Shown here: one piece after another, positions 5,274-64,000 of the stretch | Layout of the letters: the number at the start of each line of letters is the position of its first letter | How positions within the stretch are numbered: position 1 is the stretch's first letter | Sequence record: MW349128.1 | Source: Staphylococcus phage Machias | Reading direction: 5' to 3' (one strand) | Length of the DNA: 64,000 nt | Position numbers and translations under genes: made by a program | Notes under the pieces: generated by a model | The model's database searches: none | Told to the model about the DNA's origin: nothing | What the model saw: the letters and a program-made list of their open reading frames with translations, nothing else

Positions 5274-5306
5274 TAAAGATAATGGAGATTAGGTTCTCCA
5301 TTATCT
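5274..5306. terminator. terminator hairpin (GATAATGGAGA / TTAGGT loop / TCTCCATTATC) plus T-run
   Basis: inverted repeat directly after the stop of the ATPase gene. Confidence 0.6.
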
Positions 5307-5337
5307 TATTTATTTTTTTATTTATAAATATTAGGAG

Positions 5338-7281
5338 ATGAATTGGATAATGGAAAAACGTACTATTAAAGTTATTAGAAGAGATATACTTGATGAAGTT
5401 CAAGATTCTATTAGAGAAGATAGAAGTTATGATAAAGAAAAATTAGTTAAACTTGGTAAAGAATTAATGGAGAATAGTATATTTGTATTATATACTTCAG
5501 ATGTAGATATCTATGGAGTTATGTTAATGACTGTAGAAAAGATTATTGATTTAGAAGTACCTGAAGCTACATTTTCAGTATATGATGAAGATAAAGGATA
5601 TAGAATTGGTATTAATCCAATACTATTAGCTACTACAGTTGATAAAGATGAGGAAATTATTTCTATGTTCCTACATGAAGCTATGCATGTTGCTCATGGA
5701 CATTTGATTGAATTTAGAATGTTAAAGAATAAGGAAGATCAACAATTGAAAATGATAAGTCACTTAGGTATGGATTTATCTATATTTGAAATTGAAGAAG
5801 ACTTCCAATTAGGTAAACGTGAAGCTAATACAAGTAAAAAAGTATTACCTGAAATTGCACCTAATGTAGATAAGATTGAAAAGTACATTCAAGATAAATT
5901 TAATAAGACAGATTTTAAATTAAATCACAAAGATGGTTCTCATTATTATATTAAAGAATTAGTAGATGTATATAGAGAAAATGAAGAAGAAGATTTGTTT
6001 GAATCTATGGGACAATCTATTCAAGATATGATTCAAGAAGCTTCTGAGAAACAAAATGAAAGAAGTGAAGAATCATTAGAACAAGAAAATGAACAGTTGA
6101 AAGATATGTTGGATAAATTAAAAGATATAGAAGAAAAGAATGATTTATCAAAACAACTTTCCAATAATAAAATTGATGATTCAGATATTGATGACTTTGA
6201 AAAACAAGCTCAAGATTATATGAATCAGTTAGATGATTTGAATGGTAATAATGAAAAAGAAAGTAATGATACTAAAAGTCAAAAAGAAATTGAAGAAAAG
6301 ATGAATGATTTATTAGATTCTATGAAAGATAATAGTAATAATAATGATTTTGATCAATCTAATAATTCTGATTTATCTGACAAAATTCAAGAAATGAAAT
6401 CAAACTTATTAAATCAGATGATTCAAAATAGTATGCAGCAAGGTTCTGAAGGTATGCAAGGTGAAGATAGTGGAATGAGCAATGGTCAAAATATTAGTGA
6501 AATGGGAAGTAATATGACTATGTCTTCTTCATTAGAAGGTAATAAAAAATATGAAGATAGATTTGATGTTAATCCATTACAAAATGATGCTACTGAAGAA
6601 AGAATGAAAGATCAACTTCATGAATTATTAACTAACGCTGTTAGCAATAGTAGAGGTGATACTCCAGCTCATATTAAAGAACAAATTGAAATACTGAAAC
6701 GTAAACCAAAAATTAAATGGCAAGATTTCTTAAAATCTAAAGTTGGTAAGAAACGTGCAGACACTAGAAAAACTATTTTAAGACGTAATAGAAGACAACC
6801 TTATCGTAATGATGTTAGAGGAACTTTACCTGGTAAGAAATTAGGAAAAGTGTTTGCAGCAATTGATACTTCAGGTTCAATGAGTAAAACTGAAATTGAA
6901 GAAATTATTGCTGAATTATATTATATCAGTAAAGATATGAAGATTGATTTAGTTTTATTATTCTTCTCTACAGATGTAGAAGAAGTTGTAGAAGTAACTA
7001 GACCTAACCAATTTAATAATTATGTAATGGGTCGAGGAGGAACTTATTTTAGTTCTGTATTTGATTATTTAAATGATGATAATAATAAAAATAAATACAA
7101 TGTAACAAAAGATGACATTTTACTATTCTTCTCAGATGGTTTTGGAGAGCCGGAAGTTGATTATGGTGTATTAAAAGATATTATTTGGGTTATCACTGAA
7201 GATGAGAAAAACTTATCAGTTAATGATCCAAAAGGTAAAGTACTAAAATTAGAAATAGATAATAATCGTAATAATTTCTAA
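5338..7281 (+). CDS. VWA-domain protein with N-terminal HExxH metallopeptidase-like motif (DUF2201-like partner of a MoxR ATPase)
   Basis: HEAMHVAHGH motif; MIDAS-like AIDTSGSMS; long acidic/Q-rich linker; start may be the ATG at 5350. Confidence 0.6.
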   Translation: MNWIMEKRTIKVIRRDILDEVQDSIREDRSYDKEKLVKLGKELMENSIFVLYTSDVDIYGVMLMTVEKIIDLEVPEATFSVYDEDKGYRIGINPILLATTVDKDEEIISMFLHEAMHVAHGHLIEFRMLKNKEDQQLKMISHLGMDLSIFEIEEDFQLGKREANTSKKVLPEIAPNVDKIEKYIQDKFNKTDFKLNHKDGSHYYIKELVDVYRENEEEDLFESMGQSIQDMIQEASEKQNERSEESLEQENEQLKDMLDKLKDIEEKNDLSKQLSNNKIDDSDIDDFEKQAQDYMNQLDDLNGNNEKESNDTKSQKEIEEKMNDLLDSMKDNSNNNDFDQSNNSDLSDKIQEMKSNLLNQMIQNSMQQGSEGMQGEDSGMSNGQNISEMGSNMTMSSSLEGNKKYEDRFDVNPLQNDATEERMKDQLHELLTNAVSNSRGDTPAHIKEQIEILKRKPKIKWQDFLKSKVGKKRADTRKTILRRNRRQPYRNDVRGTLPGKKLGKVFAAIDTSGSMSKTEIEEIIAELYYISKDMKIDLVLLFFSTDVEEVVEVTRPNQFNNYVMGRGGTYFSSVFDYLNDDNNKNKYNVTKDDILLFFSDGFGEPEVDYGVLKDIIWVITEDEKNLSVNDPKGKVLKLEIDNNRNNF

Positions 7282-12406: not shown

Positions 12407-13409
12407 ATGACAACAGAATTAAAGAATAAAGAAGAAAGAAAAAGAGCTTTAACTGGATATTTAGAACAATTGGTATGGATGGTTCAAAAGAATAATCCTG
12501 ATTTTGATAAAGAAGAAATATTAAAAGAATGTAGAGAATTTGTAAAAGAAAATGTTAAACCTGTTATGACAGAGGTATCAGGTCAAGAAATGAATGTTGA
12601 TTCTTTATTACGTACAGTTATTAATTCAAATTTAATAGTAACTGGATCAGGTTCGATTTATCAAACACAATCACAAAGAAAAAATTTAAATGCAGAGATG
12701 TTAAAAGACTTCATTGATTCACGTAAAGTAGCTAAACATAATATGTTTATAAGTAAAGGTGTAGACGATGTTAAATATCATAAATATATGAATGAACAAA
12801 AAACAATTAAGATCTTGGCTAATAGTTACTATGGTGCTATGATACAAGGAAATAGTATTTTCTATGATCCTTATTCAGGACCTGCTATCACATATAGTGG
12901 TGTTGATATTGTTACGACTTCAGCAATAGCTTTAGAAAGATTTATAGGTAGTAAAATATTCTTTATGAATATTAGTGAGATTTATAATTATATCGTAAGA
13001 ATATGTCAAGAAGAATATAAAGATCATGATATTAAGATAAATTCAGTTCCTACTGATAATGAAATATTAAAAGGTTTATTGGATAACGTAGAATATAATT
13101 TCTCTGAAGATGAAGAAAATGATTTAAAAGAATTCTTTAGTAATTTAACTCAAGATGAGAAAAATAGAGTTTATTTTAAAAATAATCTTTATGGTTTATT
13201 AGATCACACTGATATATTTGATAATAAAATTAGTAAAATGACAGGTAGAGAAGATTTCTTAGATCCGAACGAACCACCTGAAGATATGATACCATTATTA
13301 GATGAATTATTTGATATATTAGAAGACTGGGTTATTTATAATTATCAAGATTACAATAGAATGTATAGAATGAATTATAAAAAACGTAGAAGTGTACTTA
13401 CAATCGATT
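12407..13409 (+). CDS. DNA polymerase family B, C-terminal subunit, exon 1 (motif B KILANSYYGAM, degenerate motif C region, KKRRSVL = KKRY motif)
   Basis: alignment to T4 gp43 (KxxxNSxYG, ...KKRYALNVWD); own strong RBS aggagg and ATG; exon ends at CGATT (13405..13409), which pairs with intron IGS GGTCG. Confidence 0.75.
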
Positions 13410-14050
13410 ATGATAACATGGTCGCTGCTTAAAGTAATTTAAGTTGATTCACATTATTAATTGCTGAGAAAGTATTTATTAAATTAATCAGCATCAATCA
13501 ATATGATTGTTCAACGACTAAATATAATGATACTCATAAAGAGTATATGATATAGTCTATTTTATATTTAAAAATATAATATTAAAGACAGATAGTAACT
13601 TCGTACATTTAGATCCATTATATCAAAAAATGAAAGAAAAGAAACCTGAAGATTTCCCTATTGCAGAAAATGGTTTAGAAGATAAATTAGAACAACGTGT
13701 AGGTAATATATCTATTATTAACTATCAAATTACTAAATTGCTAGAATTATCTTATCATAGATTCTGTAAAGATTTAGGATTAGAAGATGAACATTTAGGT
13801 GTTATATCTATGAAAAATGAGTATGTAAATGCTCCAGTATACAGTAATGTGTATTAGTAAATATTATTAATTGCTGAGACAAAATAAAATTAATCAGCAT
13901 CTTCAAATAATGAAGTTCAACGACTAAATATAATAATTCTTAATAATAAAGAATATGATATAGTCTAGTCTTATATTTAAAATATAAGTATAAACGTTTT
14001 ACTTGACAAACAGTTAACAACAGATAAAAAGAAAACTTATGCTTCATCAG
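13410..14050 (+). mobile_element. composite (twin/tandem) group I intron region: core A 13410..~13625, internal ORF 13630..13857, core B ~13825..14050
   Basis: two complete copies of P3-P4 (ATTAATTGCTGAG), P4'-P6 (AATCAGCATC..), J6/7-P7 (GTTCAACGACTAAAT), P8, P7' (GATATAGTCTA) and P9 hairpins; joining 13409 to 14051 restores ...KKRRSVLTID-L-IQQEGNLVQPPDLDVKGM, colinear with T4 ...KKRYALNVWDMEGTRYAEPKLKIMG. Confidence 0.6.
13630..13857 (+). other. 75-codon ORF between intron cores A and B: either an intron-borne ORF or an insertion exon of polB (unresolved)
   Basis: open frame with no SD sequence; does not align to the T4 gp43 KKRY-to-KIMG segment. Confidence 0.3.
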
Positions 14051-14697
14051 TAATTCAACAAGAGGGTAATTTAGTTCAACCACCAGACTTAGATGTTAAA
14101 GGTATGGCTATTAGAAAAGTTAATACTAATAAACGTATTAGAGAATTATTTACTGAAATATTACAAAAAGATATCTTAGAAAATAAAACTGGAATTGATA
14201 GAATTGGAATTATACGTAAATATAAAGAAATTGAAGAAATGATTAAAAAATCATTAGAGAATGGTGATATTGAATTCTTAAAACCTGGTAAAGCTAATAA
14301 CGCAGAAGTATATAAAGATCCTTATACACAAATGAATTATAGAGCAGCTTTATCATGGAATTTAATGTATCCAGATAAAGAAATATCTCTTCCAGCAAAT
14401 ATCTTAATGGTTAAATTAAATATTAAATCATTTGGAGATATTAAGGATAAAGTTGATGATGAAGAATTATTAGATAAATTTAGAGAAGTATTTAGAAACG
14501 AAAGATTAGTTAAAAATGGAATGAATGTAATTGCAGTTGAAGGTAATACAATTCCTGAAGAATTTAGACCTTTTATTGATTATGATTCAATGATAGAAGA
14601 TCATATTAAACCAGGTAAAGATATTATTGAATCTATTGGAGTTAAAGTGTTAGAATCTTCAAATAGTTCTTTCGTATCAAATATGGTTAAATTTTAA
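14051..14697 (+). CDS. DNA polymerase family B, C-terminal subunit, last exon (thumb region)
   Basis: in-frame continuation ...QQEGNLVQPPDLDVKGMAIRKVNTNK aligns to T4 MEGTRYAEPKLKIMGLETQKSSTPK; omega-G at 14050. Confidence 0.65.
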
Positions 14698-14720
14698 AAA
14701 AAAAAAGGAGGGTATATTTA

Positions 14721-15224
14721 ATGAGATACTTTTTATTTAAACCTAAAAAGTTTCAAGAACTATTTGAAACTGAAAAGAAATTATCATCTGTCTTTGAATA
14801 TTATAGAGATATGAAAAAAGATATTGTATTTAAAGTTGATGAAAATGATGATATTTTTATGATGTTATATAATATTTTAAGTGATGAAATATTACCTTTT
14901 ATAAGATGTAAAGTATACAATAAAAAAGATGGAGAAATACTAAAAGCATCAGAATTATATGTCCCTATTAGTTTGGATATTCATAAAGAAATAAATATAA
15001 ATAAAAATAGTATAGAGTATGATTCTAACATGCCTTATAAACATGGTTTAATTGAATGTCCATCTATTGACGAAGATAATACTAACAATTATCTTCGTTT
15101 AAATTTTCAATATAATGACAAAGATGATTATTTTTATATTTACTTAAATGATATTTATGCTATTTTTGAAGAGATAGATAAAACAGAATTTATGAAAATA
15201 GAAACTAAAAAGAATTTTATGTAG
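14721..15224 (+). CDS. hypothetical protein (167 aa)
   Basis: ORF with RBS aaaggaggg. Confidence 0.5.
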   Translation: MRYFLFKPKKFQELFETEKKLSSVFEYYRDMKKDIVFKVDENDDIFMMLYNILSDEILPFIRCKVYNKKDGEILKASELYVPISLDIHKEININKNSIEYDSNMPYKHGLIECPSIDEDNTNNYLRLNFQYNDKDDYFYIYLNDIYAIFEEIDKTEFMKIETKKNFM

Positions 15225-15283
15225 ATTGAAAAAATTTATTATTTTCATATAAAAATTCTTGCTTAATTTTTAATTTTATGTTA

Positions 15284-15300
15284 AAATATATATTATAAAA
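15284..15300 (+). promoter_or_regulatory. promoter-like motif AAATATATATTATAAAA
   Basis: consensus copy 60 nt upstream of gene 15362; followed by weak hairpin AGAATA..TATTCT. Confidence 0.45.
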
Positions 15301-15361
15301 ACGAGAATATGTCACTATTAAAATTAAACTTATTCTTAATAAATTTGGAGAGTGAAAAGAA

Positions 15362-16672
15362 ATGGCAAAACAATCAGATGTATTTAGTAAAAAGAAATCA
15401 TTATATAGAAAAAATGGTAGAAAAATACCTTCTAAGTTTAGAAAGATGGATGTAGATGGTACTTGGTTTTATAGATTTGATCATAATAGATTTATCATTG
15501 ATAATTTAACTAGATTTATGGAAGATAAAGAATTAAAAAAATTATTAAATGATTATAGAAATAATTATGATAATAAAGAAAAATTTAATAATGATTGTTA
15601 CTTCTTTGAATTAGATAAAGATATACCTAAATTAAATAAATCTCAATTAAAGATATTCTTCACTCATTTATCTAGAAAACATATTGGAAAAGATTTCTTA
15701 AAAAATATTACTTTGAAAGATAATTCTAAATTAGAAATAAAAGAATTTGATGATTTAGAAATATGGTCAAGAGAACCTGATAAAGAAGAAGTATATGACG
15801 TTGGTTATCTTGATATGAAAGATTATAGAATGATTGCTCATATTGATCATGAAAATGAAGAAATTGTTATTCATACAGATATTGAAGAAGAAAATCCAAA
15901 ATCATATAGTACTTTAATTAGTTCTTTAGAATCAATTGAAATTGATGATTATTATGAAGATATTAGCTCTGATGAAATAAGAATTAAATTAAATGACTTT
16001 AATTTAAGAAAAGTATTTAATAAGACTAATAGTAAAATATTTAAAGTTATTTTACCAGTTACTTATAATTATGAAGGTTTTGATGATCAAGTGTCCTTCT
16101 TATTTGATAATTTCAGTAAAACATATATTAAACAACTTGAAAAAGAAGAATACGATAAGAAAATGCCTATCGGAGGACAACCTTATCATTTAAGACCTGA
16201 AAATAGACCTTATTATGCTAAACGTAGAATAATTAAAGATTGGAATATTTATGAAATATTTGATGAAGATAAAGATGGATATAAATTATTCAGTGTTAAA
16301 GATGATCAAGGGTTTATTTATTTAATATACTATATTGGTAAGAATTATCATGGTAAAGGTATAATAGTTAACGGTAAAGAATCTCCAGAACTTCAAGATC
16401 CGTCTAATTATAGAAAATCAGTTAAATTAAAAGATATTTATTACAGTGTATTAATTTCACAAGCTAAATATAATCTAATGAAGAAAAATAAATTTGATAT
16501 TTATACAGCTTTTGATACATCCAACCCTAAATATATGACAATTTCAGATGAAGAAAATATTCATACAACTGATTTCTTAATACCTGAAAGACCATTTAAA
16601 ATTAGACAAACTAAATTTAGAGAAGATAAAATATCAAATTTAAAAGATAAATTCGTAGAGGAGTTTGAATAG
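15362..16672 (+). CDS. hypothetical protein (436 aa)
   Basis: ORF with RBS ggagagtgaaaag. Confidence 0.55.
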   Translation: MAKQSDVFSKKKSLYRKNGRKIPSKFRKMDVDGTWFYRFDHNRFIIDNLTRFMEDKELKKLLNDYRNNYDNKEKFNNDCYFFELDKDIPKLNKSQLKIFFTHLSRKHIGKDFLKNITLKDNSKLEIKEFDDLEIWSREPDKEEVYDVGYLDMKDYRMIAHIDHENEEIVIHTDIEEENPKSYSTLISSLESIEIDDYYEDISSDEIRIKLNDFNLRKVFNKTNSKIFKVILPVTYNYEGFDDQVSFLFDNFSKTYIKQLEKEEYDKKMPIGGQPYHLRPENRPYYAKRRIIKDWNIYEIFDEDKDGYKLFSVKDDQGFIYLIYYIGKNYHGKGIIVNGKESPELQDPSNYRKSVKLKDIYYSVLISQAKYNLMKKNKFDIYTAFDTSNPKYMTISDEENIHTTDFLIPERPFKIRQTKFREDKISNLKDKFVEEFE

Positions 16673-16675
16673 TAT

Positions 16676-17410
16676 ATGGAGGATAATGAATATATGTATA
16701 CAGAAGATGAAATGAATACAGGTCATATAGTTGCGGATTGTGATGAAGTTTTAGTCAATATATCGCCAAAGATAGTTCAATTAATGCATGAAGATTATGA
16801 ATATTATAATCAATTCTTTAGATTATCTGAAGATTTTGATTATAATAAACATTATGATGTAATATTAAGTAGACCTGAATACTATATAGATCAATGGTTA
16901 GTTAGAAAAGATGTTTATAATAACTTTTCAGAAAAAGAAGTTAATGAAGCAAGAGAAAGACTACAAAATGAAATTATATTTAAAAAAGATTTATATGATG
17001 AACTTCAACCAACTAATTTAGGTAGAAGTTTATCATATACCATTAATACACCGTTAATGAATAAATTAACTATCGTTACTAAAACTTCAGATAATAATCT
17101 AAAATCTAAAGAGAAGTTTTTAAAAACTTTATTTAGAGGAAGTATGGATAAAGTTGATATATTCTACTTAGAACCAGATGAGAAAAAATCTGATGTGATT
17201 AATTCTTTAGGATATGTTACTAGAATATATGAAGATGAAGTAAGTAATATTAGTGATATTATAAAGAACTGTCAAAATGTAACACAAACAGGAATTGATA
17301 TTCCTTCATTGGGATATAATCAAGATATCGATGAAGGAACGATATTAAAAGCTAAAGAAAAGAAAATTGATTTAAACTATTTCAGTTATATGGGACAAAG
17401 TATTAAATAA
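16676..17410 (+). CDS. hypothetical protein (244 aa)
   Basis: ORF with RBS tatggagg, tightly coupled to the upstream gene. Confidence 0.55.
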   Translation: MEDNEYMYTEDEMNTGHIVADCDEVLVNISPKIVQLMHEDYEYYNQFFRLSEDFDYNKHYDVILSRPEYYIDQWLVRKDVYNNFSEKEVNEARERLQNEIIFKKDLYDELQPTNLGRSLSYTINTPLMNKLTIVTKTSDNNLKSKEKFLKTLFRGSMDKVDIFYLEPDEKKSDVINSLGYVTRIYEDEVSNISDIIKNCQNVTQTGIDIPSLGYNQDIDEGTILKAKEKKIDLNYFSYMGQSIK

Positions 17411-17412
17411 AC

Positions 17413-17470
17413 AAATAATCCATGTTTGACAAATTCAAGTCAAACATGGATTTATTATAATTTTTTTTTT
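17413..17470. terminator. rho-independent terminator (AATCCATGTTTGAC / loop / GTCAAACATGGATT + T10)
   Basis: 14-bp perfect stem followed by a poly-T run. Confidence 0.75.
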
Positions 17471-17508
17471 ATAAAAATTGACATTGAGGAAGGAAATTAA
17501 AATGAAAA

Positions 17509-17802
17509 ATGGACATTAAAGATTTCATAATAGTTTTTTCTTTATTCTATCTTATTTTAGTTGCTATACCGTCTGTAATATTCTTAAGTAAAATTAATTA
17601 CAAAAAGAGTAATAAAATTATTATATTATTCTTTAATATAATAATCGTTTTATTTATATGTATTACTGTATTACTGTATAATTTATTTAATAAAGAAGAT
17701 AATAAAGAATCACTAAAATATTATAATAAAGAAGAAAATATAATAGATTATTATATCGAAAAAGATATTAATCCATTATTAAAAGAAAGTGATGTGAAAT
17801 AG
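17509..17802 (+). CDS. small membrane protein (two predicted TM helices)
   Basis: FIIVFSLFYLILVAIPSVIFL and IIILFFNIIIVLFICITVLLY hydrophobic segments. Confidence 0.5.
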   Translation: MDIKDFIIVFSLFYLILVAIPSVIFLSKINYKKSNKIIILFFNIIIVLFICITVLLYNLFNKEDNKESLKYYNKEENIIDYYIEKDINPLLKESDVK

Positions 17803-17805
17803 TAA

Positions 17806-18957
17806 ATGAAAGTAGATATGATAGATATTGAACAAGTCATAACTGATACAAATGCTAAAGAAGTAACCAATCCTGTATTTTTCGATTCAGGTATACTACC
17901 AAAAGAAGATGGTTTATTTTCATATGATATATTTGGTTTAATAGGTACTCCTGAAAGAAAAACCAATTTAGGTTGGATTAATTTAAAGGATAAATACCTT
18001 AATCCGGTGGCTTATAAAGCATTAAAAGATTTAGATAAAAATATTGAACTATGTATTCAGGGTTCAGAGTATTTTAAAGTAGAAAAAGGTCAATTAGTTC
18101 CTTCAGAAGATGGAGATACTGGACTGAATTTCTTATATGAAGTATTTGATGATTTAAAATTTAGAAAGAATGATTCTCGTATTAGATCTGAAAAAATTGA
18201 TATGATTAAAAATACAGATAAGCAAAAAATATTTGTAGATAAATGGCTAGTAATACCTGCTTTTTATAGAGACTTTAATCCTAATGAAACTTCAGGAGAA
18301 ATTCAAGATACTGAAGAAGTTAATAATATGTATTCTTCTATTATACGTTCTGTAGATGCTATTAGTTTTAATTCTTTTGGTTTTATTGCTAACAGTACTA
18401 AATATAATATACAAAATACATTATTTGAAATATATCAGAAATTTACTTCAGGAGAATTATCAGGTAAAACTGGTTTTATGCAAAAACGTATATTGGGTAA
18501 AACAGTAGATAATAGTACTCGTGCAGTTATTTCTTCACCTAAAATTAATTCGAATAGATGGGATGAAATGCAGATAGAGTTTGGTGAGTTAGGTGTACCA
18601 TTAACTCAATTAGTTACCTTATTTTTACCATTCTTTAATAAGTATATAATTGATTTTATTGAACTTCATAAAGATGCTTTCCAAACAGCTACTGGAAATG
18701 ATGAGAAAGAATTATCATTAGAAGAAGTGTATGAACAATTCGATGATAAATCTATTAAGAATATGCTAGAATTCTTTATTAAAGATCCTAATGAAAGATT
18801 TAGTCCTATATATGTAAATGATAGAGAAGGTAAACGCCATAAAGTTAAATTATTTGAAAAAACTTTGGGTAGAGATTTTACTGTAATTGATTTACTTTAT
18901 ATTGCTGCAACCGAAATAGTAGAAGATAAGCATGTTATGTATTCAAGATATCCGATT
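17806..18957 (+). CDS. multisubunit RNA polymerase beta-prime-like subunit, N-terminal half, exon 1
   Basis: PKEDGLFSYDIFG ~ E. coli KPERDGLFCARIFGP; GKTGFMQKRILGKTVDNSTRAVIS ~ [23 protein letters not shown]; exon ends MYSRYPI (NRAPTLH region) at CGATT 18953..18957. Confidence 0.75.
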
Positions 18958-19152
18958 AATAAAATGGTCGCTGCTTAAAGTGATTTAAGTTGATAAACAT
19001 TGTTAATTGCTGAAATACTATTAATAAAGTTAATCAGCATCAATTAAATATAATTGTTCAACGACTAAATGCAATGATACTATTTAATAGTATATAATAT
19101 AGTCTAATTTATATAATACTTATATAAATATAATAAATGCGAAAATTTCTTG
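18958..19152 (+). mobile_element. group I intron C (compact, no ORF)
   Basis: first 31 nt identical to intron A (ATGGTCGCTGCTTAAAGTRATTTAAGTTGAT, IGS GGTCG); cores TTAATTGCTGAAA / AATCAGCATC / GTTCAACGACTAAATGC / ATATAGTCTA; 3' end approximate. Confidence 0.65.
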
Positions 19153-19341
19153 AACGTAGCACCTGCTAAAATTAAAATATTAACTACTGTTGATACTATT
19201 CCAGAAATAATTTTAGATGATATAGTATTAAAAGATTACCCTAAAGTAGTAAGAGAGTATCCTGTTGATGAAGATATTTTCTTAGATACTGCAATCATAC
19301 ACAATTCATATGCTCAAGCACTTGGTGCAGATTTTGATGGC
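19153..19341 (+). CDS. RNAP beta-prime N-half, exon 2 (ends ...AQALGADFDG = first part of the NADFDGD catalytic motif)
   Basis: in-frame segment ending GADFDG immediately before intron D; start boundary uncertain (ORF track 19150..19365 reads through into the intron). Confidence 0.5.
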
Positions 19342-19491
19342 AAAATTTTATATTACCATCATTAAATAATATTAATTGCTGGAAAATCTAATAAGATAAT
19401 CAGCATCAACTTAATAAAAGTTGTTCAACGACTAAATATATTACTAAAGAAGATATAGTCTAATTATATGTAAATACATGTATATAAAATG
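19342..19491 (+). mobile_element. group I intron D (compact, no ORF)
   Basis: ATTAATTGCTGGAAAA / AATCAGCATCAAC / GTTCAACGACTAAATAT / GATATAGTCTAATT; omega-G at 19491. Confidence 0.65.
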
Positions 19492-19635
19492 GATATGATT
19501 TCAATACGCTCTTTATGGTCTGTAGAAGCAAATAAAGAAGCTGATAAACTTATTAATAAGAAAACTAATTACTTAAACTACACAGGAAATAGTATACGTG
19601 GAGTTGGTAATGAGAGTAAGTTTGTATGCTCTCAA
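19492..19635 (+). CDS. RNAP beta-prime N-half, exon 3 (DMISIRSLWSVEANKEADKLI...)
   Basis: aligns to E. coli [21 protein letters not shown] directly after NADFDG; the 3' end could lie anywhere 19606..19635. Confidence 0.5.
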
Positions 19636-19760
19636 TAAATTTCATTAATTGCTGGAAAAACAAAATTAATCAGCATCAACTTAATAAAAGTTGTTCAACG
19701 ACTAAATATGAAAATGATTTAAATATCATAAGATATAGTCTAATTATCATAAATATATGG
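19636..19760 (+). mobile_element. group I intron E (compact, no ORF)
   Basis: ATTAATTGCTGGAAAAA / AATCAGCATCAAC / GTTCAACGACTAAATATG / GATATAGTCTAATT, nearly identical to intron D; boundaries approximate. Confidence 0.6.
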
Positions 19761-33282: not shown

Positions 33283-34070
33283 CGCAAACAGTTGGGTTAA
33301 TTTAGGTAGCTCAATTAAAAAATTATTAATTGCTGAAAAGTTTAAAAATAATCAGCATCACTAATTTAGTGTTCAACGACTAAATATAATAATATAATTC
33401 AAATATACTTCCTTTATAAAAGGAGGAAAATAATGAAAGAAATATGGAAAGACATTAAAGATTTTGAAAATTACTATAAAATATCCAATACTGGTAAAGT
33501 TAAATCGGTTTCAAGATATGTATATAATGATTCTTTAAAAGGTAAAGATAAAAGAATGCTTATTAAAGAAAGAGTATTAAAAACAAGAATAAATAAAAAT
33601 GGTTATGAAGATGTTCAATTATATAGAAATAATAAGAAGCATACAAGAAGAATACACCGTTTAGTTGCAGAGAATTTTATCGAAAATAAAGATATTGATA
33701 AAAATGTAGTTAATCATATTGACGGTAATAAATTAAATAACAATTTATCTAATTTAGAATGGATGTCAGTATTAGAAAATAATTTACATGCTATAGAAAA
33801 TAATCTTCATAAAACTGATAAAATGGAAGAATCATTAAAAAAGAGAAGAAAACCAGTAGCACAAATAGATAAAGAAACAGATAAAATTATAAAAGAATAT
33901 GAAAGTGCTAAATTTGCAGCGGAAGAATTAAATATAGATAGAAAAGGAATACAAGCAGTTGCAAATGGTTATAGAAATAGTAAAACTTACAAAAATTTTA
34001 AATGGAAATATATTTGAATTTAAAAGATATAGTCTAATCTTTATACAATTGTATAAAGTTAATATAAATG
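33283..34070 (+). mobile_element. group I intron F with an HNH homing endonuclease ORF inserted between P7 and P7'
   Basis: ATTAATTGCTGAAAAG / AATCAGCATC / GTTCAACGACTAAATAT before the ORF and GATATAGTCTAATC (34026..34036) after it. Confidence 0.65.
33433..34017 (+). CDS. intron-encoded HNH homing endonuclease (NUMOD4-like N-terminus, HNH_3 core, C-terminal NUMOD1/IENR1-like HTH)
   Basis: MKEIWKDIKDFENYYKISNTGKVKS; VNHIDGNKLNNNLSNLEW; RBS aaaggagg. Confidence 0.8.
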   Translation: MKEIWKDIKDFENYYKISNTGKVKSVSRYVYNDSLKGKDKRMLIKERVLKTRINKNGYEDVQLYRNNKKHTRRIHRLVAENFIENKDIDKNVVNHIDGNKLNNNLSNLEWMSVLENNLHAIENNLHKTDKMEESLKKRRKPVAQIDKETDKIIKEYESAKFAAEELNIDRKGIQAVANGYRNSKTYKNFKWKYI

Positions 34071-34360
34071 TCCCTGAACCAGGAATGGCTGAAATTAATA
34101 TTATAACTGTAGTTGATTGGAGTAAACGTAAATGTTTAACATTTGCATTAAAATATGATACAGATAATTATAATGAAGTTATGACAGATAAAACTAAATT
34201 AATGGAAGATCTAAATAATATTTATAATAATAAAGATAGCGAGATTGGAGAAGATTTAGGTTTAGAATTTGAAATATATGAATTAGATACTGAAATGGAA
34301 ATTATTAAATCATTCTTATACTATATTAATGAAATTAGTAAGCCTGATATATGTACGGCT
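34071..34360 (+). CDS. DNA polymerase family B, N-terminal subunit, exon 2 (ends ...KPDICTA before Exo II)
   Basis: PEPGMAEINIITVVDWSKRKCLTFAL ~ T4 PDPMKAEYEIDAITHYDSIDDRFYVFDL; the exon end ACGGCT pairs with intron IGS GGTCGT. Confidence 0.7.
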
Positions 34361-35447
34361 TGAGAAACACACTGGGTCGTGTAAAACCTTTTTAATTGCT
34401 GGAACGTCCTTATTGCTTAGTGAGCTACAACGTGACTGGTAACGGTGAGCGTGATATGCTTAAAAATCATTAAGATTGGATAATCAGCAGCGAAGACTCT
34501 ATAAATCCTTTTCAAGAAAGGATGATTAATATGAATTATAAACCGAAAAATAAAAAGAAAATAACCAATGAAGATTGGAAAGAAATTGTCAAAGAATTAG
34601 GTAATGATGAATATGAAGTATTAGGAGATTACCTGGGTACAAAAAACAAAATTGAAATGAAACATAAAATATGTGGAGAGACATTTTTTATGACACCAAA
34701 TAATTTTAAAATAAGTGAAAATCGTTGTCCTATCTGTTCTATAAAGAAAGTTTCAGAAAAACGTAGGAAGAAGACAAAGGAATTAAATGAAAAAATAAAA
34801 GAAGTTCTTGATGATTCTTATGAATTTAAATTGAACGGTAATGAAACTGTTCATAATAAAATAAAAGTAAAACATAAACAATGTGGAAACGAATACAGTG
34901 TTTTAATAAGACATATAATTTATGATAAAAATAAATGTAGTAAATGTCAAGATTTTGTTAATTCAAGAGATGAAAAAGAAATAAATAAATTCCTTATAGA
35001 AATGGGCGTAGATTTCGAAAGACAATATAAATTTGAAGATGACAAAGTAAAAAATCTTAGATTTGACTTTGCAGTTTTTAAAAATAACGAAATCAAACTT
35101 ATAGAATTTGATGGTGAATTTCATTTTAAAGAAAAATTTGGTGGACCAAAAGCATTTGAGAAAGTAGTATACAATGACTATCTCAAAAATAAATTTTGTT
35201 TTGACAATAACATAAAATTACTTAGAATACCTTATTGGGAAAGTAATAATAAAAAAGAAATAATAAAAAGGTTTATAGAGTAACGTTCAACGACTATCGA
35301 AAAGTGAGCATTATGTCGAGAGGACCTATTGCAATATAACTGAGTAGAGTACACTTTTAATTAAGTGGAAAAAGAAGGGTATGTAGAGTAACGTCTATAT
35401 ACAAGATATAGTCTATCTTTCAATAAAATATATTTTATTGAAATTTG
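34361..35447 (+). mobile_element. group I intron G carrying a homing endonuclease ORF between P6 and P7
   Basis: P1 pairing ACGGCU/GGUCGU; TTAATTGCTGGAACG ... TAATCAGCAGC; after the ORF come GTTCAACGACTATCG ... AGATATAGTCTATC and a P9 hairpin; omega-G at 35447 immediately before TGG AAT (WN of Exo II). Confidence 0.7.
34522..35283 (+). CDS. intron-encoded homing endonuclease, tandem Zn-finger-like DNA-binding modules plus Vsr/PD-(D/E)xK-like (DUF559-like) nuclease domain
   Basis: two HKxCGxxF...NxxxxxRCPICS / KCSKC repeats; C-terminal LRFDFAVFKNNEIKLIEFDGEFH; homologous to ORF 63260..64000(-). Confidence 0.55.
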   Translation: MINMNYKPKNKKKITNEDWKEIVKELGNDEYEVLGDYLGTKNKIEMKHKICGETFFMTPNNFKISENRCPICSIKKVSEKRRKKTKELNEKIKEVLDDSYEFKLNGNETVHNKIKVKHKQCGNEYSVLIRHIIYDKNKCSKCQDFVNSRDEKEINKFLIEMGVDFERQYKFEDDKVKNLRFDFAVFKNNEIKLIEFDGEFHFKEKFGGPKAFEKVVYNDYLKNKFCFDNNIKLLRIPYWESNNKKEIIKRFIE

Positions 35448-62217: not shown

Positions 62218-62397
62218 CATTTATATTAGCTATTATATTTTTATAATAGATTAGACTATATCAAATTCATTAGTATTAATGAATAATCATATTTAGTCGT
62301 TGAACTCTATAAATGTAGAGATGCTGATTAATTTAATATTTCTCAGCAATTAATAATTTTTTGACATTACATTACTATAATGAAAGGCATTTATAAT
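62218..62397 (-). mobile_element. group I intron Z (~180 nt, no ORF), interrupting the GYNFEDA-motif region of beta
   Basis: minus-strand cores TTAATTGCTGAGAAAT / AATCAGCATC / GTTCAACGACTAAATATG / GATATAGTCTAATC plus P9 hairpin; omega-G is the G of the ATG at 62218. Confidence 0.65.
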
Positions 62398-62799: not shown

Positions 62800-63011
62800 C
62801 AGATTATCTTAATACACTTTGTTTATTGTGTATTAGTTCTTAATGAACTTCTTTAAAATAAATTAAAGCTGAGACTATATCAAATACCATTTAGGTATAA
62901 TCTTATTTAGTCGTTGAACAATTTGATTGATGCTGATTAATTTAATTATTATTTTCTCAGCAATTAAAGATTTTTCTATTATTATATTACTATAATAAAG
63001 GGCATTCATAT
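62800..63011 (-). mobile_element. group I intron Y (~212 nt, no ORF)
   Basis: minus-strand TTAATTGCTGAGAAAAT / AATCAGCATCAATC / GTTCAACGACTAAATAAG / GATATAGTCTCAGC; 5' leader region ATATGAATGCCCTTTATTATAGTAAT shared with intron Z. Confidence 0.65.
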
Positions 63012-63176
63012 ACCAGTCATTCCTATACGTGGACTATCTGCATGTTTTGAGCTGAATGGGTTGAGCAATTCTAATGGAGTGTATAGAGATGTATCACTCG
63101 CATCTTTCTTACCGCCATCTGTATAACCTCTAGTGGATTTAATTAGTGAATCATATGAAAGCTGTCTGACCACTCC
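63012..63176 (-). CDS. RNAP beta-like subunit, exon (…LELLNPFSSKHADSPRIGMTG ~ E. coli SLIPFLEHDDANRALMGAN); 5' boundary unresolved
   Basis: relatively GC-rich conserved segment; joins to the next exon as MTG-TQAKHVIP ~ MGANMQRQAVP. Confidence 0.55.
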
Positions 63177-64000
63177 TCAAATATCTTCAATAATGGGCGT
63201 TAACCATTACCAGTTCTCTTATGAACTTCTTTAGGATTTCCCTAAAAGTTGAGACTATATCAAATACCATCAATTAATGGTATAGTTCTTTTTCCACTCA
63301 CTTGAGTGTACTCTACTTCATCAAATATATCTTTGAAATAATTTTTATTAAAATCAGTGTAATAATCTTTTTCATTTAATATTTTTTTATTTCTTATAAT
63401 GAGTATATTTGATTTTTCGATAGTCGTTGAACTATTTAAAATATCATGAAAGTTATCTAAAAAGAAATTGATATTATTTTTATTTATACGAATTAAAGTT
63501 AAATTATTTTTTAAACAAAAGTCATTTTTTATGTGGTCTTTTAGTGCATTTTCTTTGACATTTTCTAATTTTTGATATTTAGAATTATTTCTATACTTAA
63601 AATGTTGAACCCCATCAAATTCCAAAAGTATATTTTCGTTATTTAATGTAAATAAGAAATCAAATCTAAATCTATTAGTATTTTTAGAATAATAAAAATC
63701 ATTAAAAGACTTTTCTCTTTCATAATTTATATTATTTTCATCAAAGAATTTTCTAATTGATATTTCACCATTAGACTTAATAGCACAAATAGGACATCTG
63801 TGCCCTGCACTTACAAAACTGTTTGCACGCATCTCAAATACTTTACCACACTTATGATGTAATATTTTCATTTTAGTGAATAGATTAGTATATGTTTGTC
63901 CATCAATAAGAGAGTATTCATTTTTGCCTAAATATTCTATTTCTTTTTTAAAACTTTCAATTGTTCTTTTTTTTATATTTAGAACATTTAGGACACTTCT
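63177..64000 (-). mobile_element. group I intron X (3' part; the 5' part and P1-P6 lie beyond the window end) carrying a homing endonuclease ORF
   Basis: minus-strand GTTCAACGACTATCGAAAAA (63417..63436) and GATATAGTCTC (63249..63259) plus a P9 hairpin; 3' region homologous to intron G of polB. Confidence 0.55.
63260..64000 (-). CDS. intron-encoded homing endonuclease (homologue of 34522..35283), partial at the window edge; C-terminal coding overlaps the intron P7-P8-P7' core
   Basis: HHKCGKVFEMRANSFVSAGHRCPICA; FRFDFLFTLNNENILLEFDGVQH; open frame continues upstream of the ORF-track start 63871 (…TIESFKKEIEYLGKNEYSLIDG ~ N-terminus of 34522 ORF). Confidence 0.55.
   Translation of the reverse strand, partial: RSVLNVLNIKKRTIESFKKEIEYLGKNEYSLIDGQTYTNLFTKMKILHHKCGKVFEMRANSFVSAGHRCPICAIKSNGEISIRKFFDENNINYEREKSFNDFYYSKNTNRFRFDFLFTLNNENILLEFDGVQHFKYRNNSKYQKLENVKENALKDHIKNDFCLKNNLTLIRINKNNINFFLDNFHDILNSSTTIEKSNILIIRNKKILNEKDYYTDFNKNYFKDIFDEVEYTQVSGKRTIPLIDGI

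What the first reader, a model, noticed from the sequence alone, without database searches (positions are those of the whole stretch)
13410..18990. Introns A (polB) and C (RNAP beta-prime) share an identical 31-nt 5' end and the same 5' exon context CGATT
Both introns begin (A/T)ATGGTCGCTGCTTAAAGT(A/G)ATTTAAGTTGAT. In both genes the 5' exon ends with CGATT, which can pair with the GGTCG internal guide as C:G, G:C, A:U, U.G, U.G. The ORF-track reading frames therefore share the terminal amino acids MVAA-stop, and this is intron sequence, not protein. The same GGTCG(T) guide pairs with the exon end ACGGCU of intron G at 34355..34360. This pattern fits recent intron spread by reverse splicing or homing into ectopic sites that satisfy a short IGS match.
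Basis: seen in the sequence. Interest (0 to 1): 0.6.

Follow-up and report, generated by a model that had tools for sequence, protein, structure and literature searches.

The report
Mini group I introns sharing a guide
Two tiny self-splicing (group I) introns, one in the DNA polymerase gene and one in the RNA polymerase gene of a Staphylococcus jumbo phage, carry almost the same target-recognition cassette and sit after the same four exon letters (CGAU), and related phages have the same cassette after CGAU in two more genes, which suggests the cassette helped choose the insertion sites.

Summary
Window 13418-13448 and 18964-18994 match at 30 of 31 bases. Both ORFs read through into the intron as MVAA-stop.

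The window is an AR9-like Staphylococcus jumbo phage. It carries at least 10 ORF-less or HEG-bearing group I introns that Rfam misses. [quoted passage not shown]

Corrected junctions are intron A 13409-13587 and intron C 18957-19139. The 5' exon ends in CGAU, not CGAUU; the second U is intron nucleotide 1. The shared block starts at intron nucleotide 10 (A) or 8 (C). It holds the guide sequence GUCG plus the P2 hairpin.

The same cassette follows CGAU in gyrB (AH12) and in the prohead protease gene (Madawaska, LY01). Nothing beyond 4-5 nt is shared between sites. At three of these sites, intron-bearing alleles carry synonymous changes that create CGAU.

Intron cores are shuffled between copies. 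The A/C split predates three sequenced phages, so the spread is not recent. The link to intron G is superficial.

Guide-directed ectopic spread is supported. Reverse splicing itself is not shown, although every phage of this clade encodes a reverse transcriptase.

The parts
12407..13408 (+). DNA polymerase (family B catalytic subunit), exon 1. It ends in ...ACA ATC GAT.
   Evidence: tblastn and MAFFT against the intronless SA1, S6 and PALS_2 genes. The spliced ORF is 645 aa and continuous.
13409..13587 (+). Intron A: a 179-nt ORF-less group I intron that splits the catalytic DTDS motif (ID|TDS). It starts with U and ends with G13587.
   Evidence: A 179-nt gap block against five intronless alleles. 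P/Q/R/S boxes at 13457, 13484, 13510 and 13547. P3 pairs 6/6, and P6 and P8 stems are present. The centroid fold recovers P1, P2, P4, P6, P7, P8 and P9.
13405..13424 (+). P1 of intron A. Exon CGAU (13405-13408) pairs with guide GUCG (13421-13424), with U13408.G13421 at the cleavage site. Intron UAUG (13409-13412) pairs with CAUG (13417-13420).
   Evidence: The register is fixed by the DTDS codons.
13418..13448 (+). Shared 31-nt cassette, copy in intron A. It holds the 3' strand of P1 with the guide, then P2 (13428-13443, CUUAAA-GUAA-UUUAAG), then the start of J2/3.
   Evidence: 2 matches, 0 expected.
13588..13822 (+). DNA polymerase exon 2 (235 nt).
13823..13996 (+). Intron B: 174 nt, with P1 GAGU|AU..AU+GCUC. 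It is absent from PB50.
   Evidence: PB50 lacks it and shows a divergent patch on both flanks.
13997..14697 (+). DNA polymerase exon 3.
17806..18956 (+). Virion RNA polymerase beta' (N-terminal part), exon 1. It ends in ...TAT CCG AT.
18957..19139 (+). Intron C: a 183-nt ORF-less group I intron between P-I and E-N-F. It starts with U and ends with G19139.
   Evidence: A 183-nt gap block against intronless S6, PALS_2, Madawaska and SA1. Boxes at 19003, 19030, 19057 and 19094. P3 CAUUGU/GCAAUG is compensatory relative to A's CAUUAU/AUAAUG. Fold.
18953..18970 (+). P1 of intron C. Exon CGAU (18953-18956) pairs with GUCG (18967-18970). Intron UA (18957-18958) pairs with UG (18965-18966).
   Evidence: The register is inferred from the terminal-G rule and from homology with A.
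18964..18994 (+). Shared 31-nt cassette, copy in intron C. P2 is 18974-18989 with a GUGA loop.
19342..19491 (+). Intron D: 150 nt, inside NADFDG|D. It has C19341.A19355 at the cleavage site and almost no P8.
19618..19759 (+). Intron E: 142 nt, with P1 UGAGAGU|A..U+GCUCUCA and no P2.
33298..34070 (+). Intron F in the DNA polymerase exonuclease subunit. It is 773 nt and carries an HNH/NUMOD endonuclease ORF (33433-34017). Its exon ends in AGUUGGGU| and its guide is GCUCAAUU.
   Evidence: 773-nt block against S6; NUMOD4 3.8e-15, HNH_3 7.9e-09.
34361..35447 (+). Intron G: 1087 nt with a 253-aa ORF (34522-35283). Its 9-bp P1 is UGUACGGCU/GGUCGUGUA. It is unrelated to A and C apart from the pentamer GGUCG.
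62800..63011 (-). Intron H in virion RNAP beta (212 nt), with exon ..CUGGU| and guide GCC. It belongs to a second cassette family (AUGCC-CUUUAUUAUAGUAAU...). The 5' site is supported by P1; the 3' site is inferred only from reading frame and the terminal-G rule, because no intronless allele was found for this site.
62218..62397 (-). Intron I in virion RNAP beta (180 nt), with exon ..AUGGU|. It is in the same cassette family as H.

Best explanation
A and C are two members of a multi-copy family of miniature group I introns (142-212 nt, mostly ORF-less). The family populates a subclade of AR9-like Staphylococcus jumbo phages: at least 10 copies in this window and 31 core matches in the AH12 genome.

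Each intron recognises its 5' splice site through P1. In A and C the guide GUCG pairs with the exon end CGAU, with a U.G wobble at the cleavage site. The 31-nt shared block is a targeting cassette made of the guide plus the P2 hairpin with a GNRA loop. Removing the intron restores the catalytic DTDS motif of the DNA polymerase and the P-I-E-N-F stretch of RNAP beta'.

Inferred history:
1. The cassette, with an intron attached, spread from an older home to new sites whose only common feature is CGAU at the 3' end of the 5' exon. The likeliest older homes are the beta' site, where intronless alleles already read CCGAU|U, and/or the gyrB site.
2. Site choice was therefore directed by the guide. 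This is what reverse splicing into RNA, followed by cDNA synthesis and recombination, predicts. A reverse transcriptase is encoded by every phage of the clade.
3. After insertion, synonymous exon positions -4 and -1 matched the guide, either by selection or by very short co-conversion.
4. The catalytic cores were repeatedly swapped between copies by recombination at the invariant P/Q/R/S boxes.

The anatomy, the junctions and the multi-site pattern are shown. The RNA-level integration step is inferred.
For: Identity as group I introns:
- P/Q/R/S boxes occur 8-9 times against 1.4 expected.
- P3 pairs in 155 of 156 cells with many double changes, and P4, P6 and P8 covary.
- Every curated intron has U.G (or C.A) at the 5' site and a terminal G.
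- Spliced polB and beta' are uninterrupted 645-aa and 503-aa ORFs, colinear with intronless homologues.

Shared cassette:
- 30/31 match with 0 expected by chance.
- A and C are mutual best matches within the window, at 80%.

More sites with the cassette or the guide, each after CGAU:
- AH12 gyrB, GCCGAU|.
- MarsHill gyrB, with the same guide.
- Madawaska and LY01 prohead protease, UACGAU|.
- AH12 non-virion RNAP beta' and virion RNAP beta, GCCGAU|.
- CGAU is the exon end of 5 of the 29 curated AH12 introns.

Specificity of the association:
- Exon similarity between sites stops at 4-5 nt.
- Introns with similar 5' cassettes share longer exon ends than permuted sets: 9 of 28 pairs against 3.5 expected, p=0.006. 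Two other cassette families show the same pattern (UUGGGU|U with GCUCAAUU; GGU|AU with GCC).

Exon-guide matching, intron-bearing versus intronless alleles:
- polB: ATC GAT versus ATT GAC.
- Protease: TAC GAT versus TAT GAC, in otherwise identical flanks.
- Virion RNAP beta: GCC GAT versus GCA GAT.

Reverse transcriptase: an RVT_1 protein (5e-20) is present in all nine phages.

The review PMC3984707 states that reverse splicing needs only 4-6 complementary bases and otherwise lacks good natural cases.
Against: - There are no RNA data, so the junction of C rests on the terminal-G rule and on homology with A.
- The guide match is only 4 bp. CGAT occurs about 600 times in AH12, 3 times in spliced polB and 4 times in spliced beta'. 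Pairing is therefore not sufficient. The occupied sites are catalytic motifs, which fits selection or homing at conserved sequence as well as it fits RNA targeting.
- Exon ends of all introns in this 24% GC genome are skewed to G/C-rich tetramers (GGGU x8, CGAU x5, GAGU x4). Selection for a stable P1 would produce some clustering without common descent.
- Across the whole genome, A's core is closer to other introns (88%) than to C's (83%), and gyrB_1 is a clear chimera. The shared piece is the cassette, not the whole intron.
- The reverse transcriptase is also present in the four phages with no match to this intron family, so it does not correlate with intron load.
- Same-site gain or loss shows co-conversion patches typical of DNA-level exchange.
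- SA1 has a perfect GCCGAU site in gyrB that is unoccupied.
Confidence: 0.5

Rival explanations
1. The introns reached their present sites independently. The near-identity of the 5' cassettes comes from later gene conversion between intron copies in one genome. Homology is provided downstream by the invariant P box and upstream by a pre-existing GUCGCU guide. No guide-directed insertion is needed.
For: - Modular recombination is real. AH12 gyrB_1 combines a C-type cassette (80%) with the core and tail of another intron (93% and 85%).
- Introns at orthologous sites in different phages keep their ends but carry different cores: bp1 in the window versus LY01, bp4 in the window versus MarsHill, gyrB in AH12 versus MarsHill.
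- MarsHill gyrB has the same guide (UUGUCGCUG) but a different P2.
Against: - This model requires the two introns to have had the same guide and exon end already, which is the very thing to be explained.
- Upstream homology is at most about 10 nt.
- The GUAA (A) versus GUGA (C) difference is stable in three phages, so there is no ongoing homogenisation.
Confidence: 0.2
2. Ectopic insertion happened at the DNA level, through double-strand breaks made by free-standing or intron-encoded endonucleases of relaxed specificity, or through illegitimate recombination during co-infection. Only insertions whose exon end happened to pair with the guide, or was then mutated to pair, survived, because the host genes are essential.
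For: - The genomes carry many homing endonucleases, including the HNH/NUMOD ORF in intron F and the endonucleases annotated in MarsHill and Madawaska.
- Same-site polymorphisms show short, highly divergent flanking patches typical of co-conversion: AH12 versus the window at the beta site, and PB50 versus the window at polB site 2.
- Occupied sites are catalytic motifs (DTD, DAD, NADFDGD), which are classic endonuclease targets.
Against: - A and C carry no ORF.
- The polB, beta', gyrB and protease sites share nothing beyond CGAU, so one endonuclease cannot explain them.
- No donor exon sequence came along at the ectopic sites.
- In Madawaska versus MarsHill, the flanks are identical apart from the two guide-pairing positions. 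In the LY01-like donor the upstream exon is only 6 nt long, which leaves no room for a homologous crossover.
Confidence: 0.22
3. The shared guide and exon end are chance or convergence, with no special relationship between A and C.
For: - Exon ends are compositionally skewed, so two random introns share a tetramer with a probability of roughly 0.14 (estimated from the counts).
- This does account for the B/E pair (GAGU) and for the A/C-to-G link.
Against: - A 30/31 match has zero expectation by chance.
- The same 24-nt cassette recurs at gyrB and at the protease site.
Confidence: 0.03

Closest known systems
Group I (IA-type) introns of Staphylococcus phage Twort and other phages (orf142, nrdE; T4 td/nrdB/sunY; SPO1 DNA polymerase)
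   Same: - Self-splicing group I architecture with the classic P, Q, R and S boxes.
- Location in conserved motifs of essential phage genes.
- Several introns in one gene, and closely related introns within one genome.
- From my own recollection of Landthaler & Shub 1999 and Landthaler et al. 2002, which are not held in the library. [quoted passage not shown]
- Part of intron G is 98.5% identical to K-like Staphylococcus phages.
   Different: - These introns are much smaller (142-183 nt). Several lack P2 or nearly all of P8.
- There are up to 31 copies per genome.
- Rfam RF00028 does not score them even at E<=10.
- Subgroup assignment was not tested.
Spread of nuclear rDNA group I introns to new rRNA sites by reverse splicing (Roman & Woodson; Bhattacharya et al. 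2005, as summarised in PMC3984707)
   Same: Related introns sit at non-homologous sites. The similarity between targets is limited to the 4-6 nt that pair with the guide.
   Different: - Here the targets are protein-coding mRNAs of a virulent phage, in at least four different genes.
- A phage-encoded reverse transcriptase is available.
- As with the rDNA cases, the evidence is circumstantial only.
Intron-disrupted genes of AR9-like jumbo phages (AR9; MarsHill, Madawaska, Machias: Korn et al., bioRxiv 10.1101/2020.12.14.422802)
   Same: Same phage clade and the same host genes: RNAP subunits, DNA polymerase, gyrB and prohead protease. Exon numbers vary between phages.
   Different: That work inferred introns from protein alignments only. 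It did not describe ribozyme structure, guide sequences, cassette families or exon-guide covariation.
Small group I introns of gut 'Jug' jumbo phages (PMC12880540)
   Same: High load of small introns in essential genes: about 18.5 per genome, about 206 nt on average. The Q..R core motif used here also hits 86 stretches of IMG/VR contigs, mostly 200-400 kb.
   Different: - Different phage lineage.
- Those introns were found with published covariance models.
- The passages I searched contain no analysis of guide families or ectopic spread.
Retrotransposition of bacterial group II introns to sites defined by EBS/IBS pairing
   Same: The logic is the same: the conservation of ectopic targets is limited to the short RNA-pairing motifs.
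   Different: - Group II introns encode their own reverse transcriptase and integrate into DNA by a demonstrated mechanism.
- Group I introns do neither. The phage reverse transcriptase here is retron-like and unlinked to the introns.

Membership tests
Group I intron | Conserved core sequence elements P, Q, R and S in the right order | tested here: met
   TTAATTGCTGA, TTAATCAGCATC, TTCAACGACTAAAT and (A/T)(T/A)GATATAGTCT occur in order in A, B, C, D, E, H and I. The R box occurs 8 times against 1.4 expected.
Group I intron | Long-range P3 plus P4, P6, P7 and P8 helices supported by covariation | tested here: met
   P3 pairs in 155 of 156 cells across 26 introns, with pair types such as C-G/U-A/A-U at the same position. 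P4 shows G-C to A-U (LY01 bp1) and G.U to G-C (AH12 bp2). P6 and P8 stems differ in sequence but always pair. P7 is invariant.
Group I intron | P1 formed by an internal guide sequence and the 5' exon, with a U.G wobble at the cleavage site | tested here: met
   A and C form CGAU/GUCG with U.G. All 24 curated introns have U.G, or C.A in D and in AH12 bp2/bp3. Exon and guide covary between phages at site bp3.
Group I intron | Terminal G (omega G) at the 3' end, with precise restoration of the host ORF | tested here: met
   All curated introns end in G. Spliced polB and beta' are intact and colinear with intronless alleles.
Group I intron | Match to the curated covariance model (Rfam RF00028) | tested here: not met
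   No hit at the gathering score or at E<=10 anywhere in the window. The DC4 genome paper also reports that Rfam identified no introns in that genome. This reflects model sensitivity for tiny AT-rich phage introns. It is not a defining biological feature.
Group I intron | GTP-dependent self-splicing | not testable with these tools
   Needs in vitro transcription and GTP labelling, or RNA-seq.
Ectopic transposition by reverse splicing | Homologous introns or cassettes at non-allelic sites | tested here: met
   The cassette GUCGCU(G/U)CUUAAAGURAUUUAAG is found in polB, beta', gyrB and prohead protease.
Ectopic transposition by reverse splicing | Target similarity restricted to the nucleotides that pair with the guide, with no donor exon carried along | tested here: met
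   The sites share only (C)CGAU. The 3' exons are ACAGAU, CGAAAA, GAUGAU and UGGGUA.
Ectopic transposition by reverse splicing | A reverse transcriptase available to copy the integrated RNA | tested here: inconclusive
   An RVT_1 protein (5e-20) is encoded by AH12 and PB50 and has homologues in all nine phages. This includes the four with no match to this intron family, so there is no correlation. The gene is not in this window.
Ectopic transposition by reverse splicing | Direct detection of reverse-spliced RNA or cDNA intermediates | not testable with these tools
   Experimental.
Endonuclease-mediated homing | Intron-encoded homing endonuclease | tested here: not met
   A (179 nt) and C (183 nt) have no ORF. 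Endonuclease ORFs occur only in other introns: HNH/NUMOD in F, and an unassigned ORF in G.
Endonuclease-mediated homing | Co-conversion of flanking exon sequence at polymorphic sites | tested here: met
   Seen for same-site polymorphisms: polB site 2 in PB50 versus the window, and the beta K site in AH12 versus the window. Not seen at the Madawaska/MarsHill protease site beyond 5 nt.

The most novel reading that the evidence does not exclude
These phages run an RNA-level mobility pathway for group I introns. An excised mini-intron uses its guide-plus-P2 cassette to reverse-splice into any abundant phage mRNA that presents CGAU (or the tetramer to hexamer matching another cassette). The conserved retron-like phage reverse transcriptase copies the product, and recombination fixes it in the genome. 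The cassettes would then act as exchangeable address labels on interchangeable ribozyme cores. Near-isogenic pairs such as Madawaska and MarsHill would make this long-postulated pathway testable in a culturable system.
Probability: 0.25. Interest if true: 0.85.

Novelty: new member of a known kind. Interest (0 to 1): 0.55.

Why it matters
Ectopic spread of group I introns by reverse splicing has been proposed for decades. [quoted passage not shown]

This work adds a culturable Staphylococcus aureus phage clade with the following features:
- Up to about 30 miniature introns per genome.
- Recognisable targeting cassettes reused at unrelated sites.
- Exon-guide covariation.
- Near-isogenic phages with and without a given intron.
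- A phage-encoded reverse transcriptase.

That material can test how ORF-less group I introns reach new sites.

Two practical points follow:
- Standard Rfam screening misses every one of these introns. As a result, the deposited PB50 and AH12 records annotate the exon pieces as separate CDSs, some of which read through into intron sequence (for example the MVAA tails).
- The 140-150-nt members, which lack P2 and nearly all of P8, are candidates for very small natural group I ribozymes.

Tried and rejected
- Rfam at the gathering score and at E<=10 found no intron family, only chance-level hits.
- An exact search for the cassette in IMG/VR found nothing. The Q..R core pattern found 86 stretches (48 parsed by my script), but these have only 7 distinct and different 5' contexts, so they say nothing about this cassette.
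- An automatic splice-site finder based on P1 score plus open frames was unreliable. It picked wrong donors for several known introns. I replaced it with manual curation against the flanks.
- A first junction script failed because alignment indels shifted the protein coordinates. I replaced it with MAFFT against intronless alleles.
- A regex search for a reverse transcriptase missed it. It was found from gene context and confirmed with Pfam.
- The hoped-for correlation between reverse transcriptase presence and intron load does not exist.
- The idea that A and C are recent whole-intron duplicates was rejected after genome-wide core comparison.
- The proposed A/C-to-G relationship was rejected.
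- The B/E pair sharing GAGU is at chance level. They have different cassettes and share only the guide tetramer.
- The Landthaler papers on Twort are not in the library.

Full report
**What the window is.** The window has 24% GC. It is 95-98% identical to the Staphylococcus jumbo phages AH12 and PB50, and about 80-85% identical to LY01, MarsHill, Madawaska, S6, DC4, PALS_2 and SA1. These are AR9/PBS1-like phages with virion and non-virion multisubunit RNA polymerases. Intron-split genes were inferred for them earlier, from protein alignments only (Korn et al.).

**Checking the observation.**
- The pattern ATGGTCGCTGCTTAAAGTRATTTAAGTTGAT occurs twice, at 13418-13448 and 18964-18994. No match appears in 100 shuffles.
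- The two copies differ at one base, giving GUAA versus GUGA.
- CGATT precedes both copies (13405-13409 and 18953-18957).
- ORFs 12407-13432 and 17806-18978 read into the block and both end in MVAA-stop.
Three details need correction; they are given below.

**These are group I introns, although Rfam does not see them.**
- Rfam gives no intron hit at the gathering score or at E<=10.
- The classic P, Q, R and S boxes nevertheless occur in order at least nine times. The R box TTCAACGACTAAAT occurs 8 times against 1.4 expected.
- I compared 26 introns from the window and five related phages. The long-range P3 helix pairs in 155 of 156 cells, with many double changes: CAUUAU/AUAAUG in A, CAUUGU/GCAAUG in C, UUUCAU/AUGAAA in E, AAUCUU/AAGAUU in H. 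P4, P6 and P8 also covary.
- Thermodynamic folding of A recovers P1, P2, P4, P6, P7, P8 and P9 in the centroid structure. The z-scores are modest, -1.8 and -2.1.

**Junctions.** SA1, S6 and PALS_2 have uninterrupted polB and beta' genes. MAFFT against these alleles gives the following clean insertion blocks.

| Intron | Window coordinates | Length (nt) |
|---|---|---|
| A | 13409-13587 | 179 |
| B | 13823-13996 | 174 |
| C | 18957-19139 | 183 |
| D | 19342-19491 | 150 |
| E | 19618-19759 | 142 |

- The MAFFT placement of C is ambiguous by 1 nt.
- Further introns are F 33298-34070 (773 nt, with an HNH/NUMOD ORF), G 34361-35447 (1087 nt), I 62397-62218 (180 nt) and H 63011-62800 (212 nt), the last two on the minus strand.
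- The 3' end of H rests on reading frame and the terminal-G rule only, because no intronless allele was found for that site.
- With these junctions the spliced polB (645 aa) and beta' (503 aa) are continuous and colinear with the intronless proteins.

1. In A, only the junction 13408|13588 restores I-D-T-D-S, the catalytic DTDS motif. The exon therefore ends in CGAU and the next U is intron nucleotide 1.
2. In C, the reading CCGAU|U...G|CGAAAA is the only one that ends the intron in G, and it gives P-I-E. With an identical P1, the same register is expected in both introns.
3. The cleavage-site wobble is U.G with the second G of GGUCG.
4. The shared block is therefore the 3' strand of P1 (the guide) plus P2, not the extreme 5' end of the intron.
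5. Intron G has a 9-bp P1 (UGUACGGCU/GGUCGUGUA) in another register and no shared P2. Its resemblance to A and C is superficial.

**Is the exon match meaningful?**
- I assembled the whole AH12 genome from six fetches. It has 31 R-box cores.
- The same cassette, GUCGCUUCUUAAAGUGAUUUAAG, sits in gyrB after GCCGAU|, inside DAD|DDG of the Toprim motif.
- Madawaska and LY01 carry it in the prohead protease gene after UACGAU|.
- MarsHill gyrB has the same guide with a different P2.
- Two more AH12 introns have a GUCG guide after GCCGAU|. One is in non-virion RNAP beta', flanking a 6-nt micro-exon. The other is in virion RNAP beta.
- Beyond 4-5 nt, these sites have nothing in common on either side.
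- Among the 29 curated AH12 introns, pairs with at least 70% cassette identity share at least 4 exon-terminal bases in 9 of 28 cases. The permutation mean is 3.5 (p=0.006).
- Two further cassette families behave the same way: GCUCAAUU after UUGGGU| at three sites, and GCC plus a CUUUAUUAUAGUAAU P2 after GGU|, which includes H and I.
- A caution: exon ends are generally skewed to G/C-rich tetramers (GGGU x8, CGAU x5, GAGU x4). Part of the clustering may therefore reflect selection for a stable P1.

**Exon and guide match allele by allele.**

| Site | Intron-bearing allele | Intronless allele |
|---|---|---|
| polB site 1 | ATC GAT | ATT GAC |
| Prohead protease | TAC GAT (Madawaska) | TAT GAC (MarsHill) |
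| Virion RNAP beta | GCC GAT (AH12) | GCA GAT (window) |
| gyrB | GCC GAT | GCT GAT (S6); GCC GAT (SA1) |
| beta' site 1 | CCG AT\|C | CCG ATT |

- At the protease site, the flanks of Madawaska and MarsHill are otherwise identical for more than 150 nt.
- SA1 has a perfect but empty target in gyrB.
- At the beta' site the intronless alleles already present CGAU|U, which suggests this is an old home for the cassette.
- The synonymous changes at -4 and -1 are exactly the guide-pairing positions. This supports the P1 assignment. It also shows either selection after insertion or extremely short co-conversion.

**History.**
- The A-type (GUAA) and C-type (GUGA) cassettes are each conserved in the window, PB50 and AH12, so the split predates these phages.
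- LY01, which belongs to the roughly 80%-identity group, has the C-type cassette at the beta' site but a different intron 9 nt downstream in polB. C is therefore probably older and A derived.
- A and C are 80% identical overall and are mutual best matches within the window. Genome-wide, however, A's core is closer to three other introns (87-88%) than to C's (83%).
- AH12 gyrB_1 is a chimera of a C-type cassette and another intron's core and tail.
- Orthologous sites in different phages also keep their ends while carrying different cores.
- The introns therefore evolve as modules. Ends are bound to sites, and cores are exchanged by recombination at the invariant boxes.

**Mechanism.**
- The junction between an unrelated exon and the cassette cannot arise by homologous recombination. 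It needs a precise insertion immediately after CGAU.
- Reverse splicing predicts exactly this, and predicts no transfer of donor exon sequence.
- All nine phages encode a retron-like reverse transcriptase (RVT_1, 5e-20). This includes the four phages with no match to this intron family, so the enzyme is permissive rather than diagnostic.
- Arguing against a purely RNA-level picture, same-site presence/absence polymorphisms are flanked by short, highly divergent patches. Examples are PB50 versus the window at polB site 2, and AH12 versus the window in RNAP beta. These indicate DNA-level exchange between co-infecting phages.
- Only 1 of 3 CGAU sites in polB and 1 of 4 in beta' are occupied, and the occupied sites are catalytic motifs.
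- I therefore commit to guide-directed ectopic spread of the cassette-bearing intron, followed by modular recombination, with a confidence of about 0.5. Reverse splicing is the most likely mechanism for the insertion step, but it is not demonstrated.

**Comparison with what is known.**
- Multiple related group I introns in one phage genome are known from Twort (from my own recollection; echoed).
- Intron-split genes in this clade are known.
- High loads of roughly 200-nt introns were recently reported in gut jumbo phages.
- Bastillevirinae introns range down to 173 nt.
- I did not find any description of three things: the cassette and guide families, the multi-gene CGAU pattern, and the allele-specific exon-guide matching.
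- The finding is a new member of a known kind, with moderate interest as a testable natural case for ectopic group I intron mobility.

Noticed in passing
window 19341-19355 (intron D, 19342-19491): The cleavage-site pair is C19341 opposite A19355 instead of U.G. The orthologous MarsHill and LY01 introns have GACGGU|...GCCGU with U.G. This is a natural U.G to C.A double change, with a further exon/guide compensatory change in the same helix. The AH12 intron at beta' site 2 also uses C.A.
   Followed up: partly
window 19342-19491 and 19618-19759; L003 9004-9143; L005 1909-2062: Some members are only 140-157 nt. D and E lack P2. In D, in MarsHill/LY01 bp4 and in LY01 polB1', P8 is reduced to CUAAAG. 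These are unusually small for natural group I introns; published phage surveys go down to about 173 nt.
   Followed up: partly
window 35289-35354 (3' core of intron G): A 66-nt stretch is 98.5% identical to the K-like (Twortvirinae) Staphylococcus phages phiSA_BS1 and phiSA_BS2. This suggests intron exchange between unrelated myoviruses that share a host.
   Followed up: no
window 34361-35447 versus L012 2463-2604 (PB50): At the same site, PB50 has a 142-nt ORF-less intron and the window has a 1087-nt intron with a 253-aa ORF (34522-35283). The ORF has two CxxC pairs and no Pfam hit. This is either invasion by, or loss of, an endonuclease gene of unassigned family.
   Followed up: partly
AH12 (L016, around record 118739-118928, minus strand); L108 (LY01 protease); L004 7990-8004: Micro-exons lie between adjacent introns. 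Examples are the 6-nt GCCGAT (the 'AD' of GADYDGD in non-virion RNAP beta'), the 6-nt TACGAT in the LY01 protease gene, an 11-nt exon in the AH12 protease gene and a 15-nt exon in AH12 beta'. The catalytic NADFDGD motif of both phage RNA polymerases is invaded more than once.
   Followed up: partly
window about 63178 to beyond 63420 (minus strand), and window 63028-63036 versus AH12 237092: A further intron, J, is present in the window's virion RNAP beta gene. Its 3' end is near 63178, and an ORF lies further upstream. It is absent from AH12. AH12 instead has an intron about 100 nt downstream that the window lacks, flanked by a patch of about 35 nt of dense substitutions, some non-synonymous (YSSR versus FSSK). 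This looks like a co-conversion tract.
   Followed up: partly
AH12 record 177985-179535 (L017); not in the window: A 517-aa retron-like reverse transcriptase (RVT_1, 5e-20) is conserved in all nine Staphylococcus jumbo phages. In AH12 it is preceded by a non-coding stretch of about 1.1 kb. Its function is unknown.
   Followed up: partly
L001 and L004 annotations (PB50, AH12): The deposited records annotate the exon pieces as separate CDSs, some of which read through into intron sequence. For example, PB50 CDS 85-1110 and 5301-6473 end in the MVAA tail. The introns themselves are not annotated.
   Followed up: yes
IMG/VR loci L020-L099: The motif AATCAGCATC...GTTCAACGACTAAAT occurs in 86 stretches of uncultivated contigs, mostly 200-400 kb, with GC about 29%. 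These are probably the gut 'Jug' jumbo phages. My script parsed 48 of them, with only 7 distinct 5' contexts, often as two introns 491 nt apart in one gene.
   Followed up: partly
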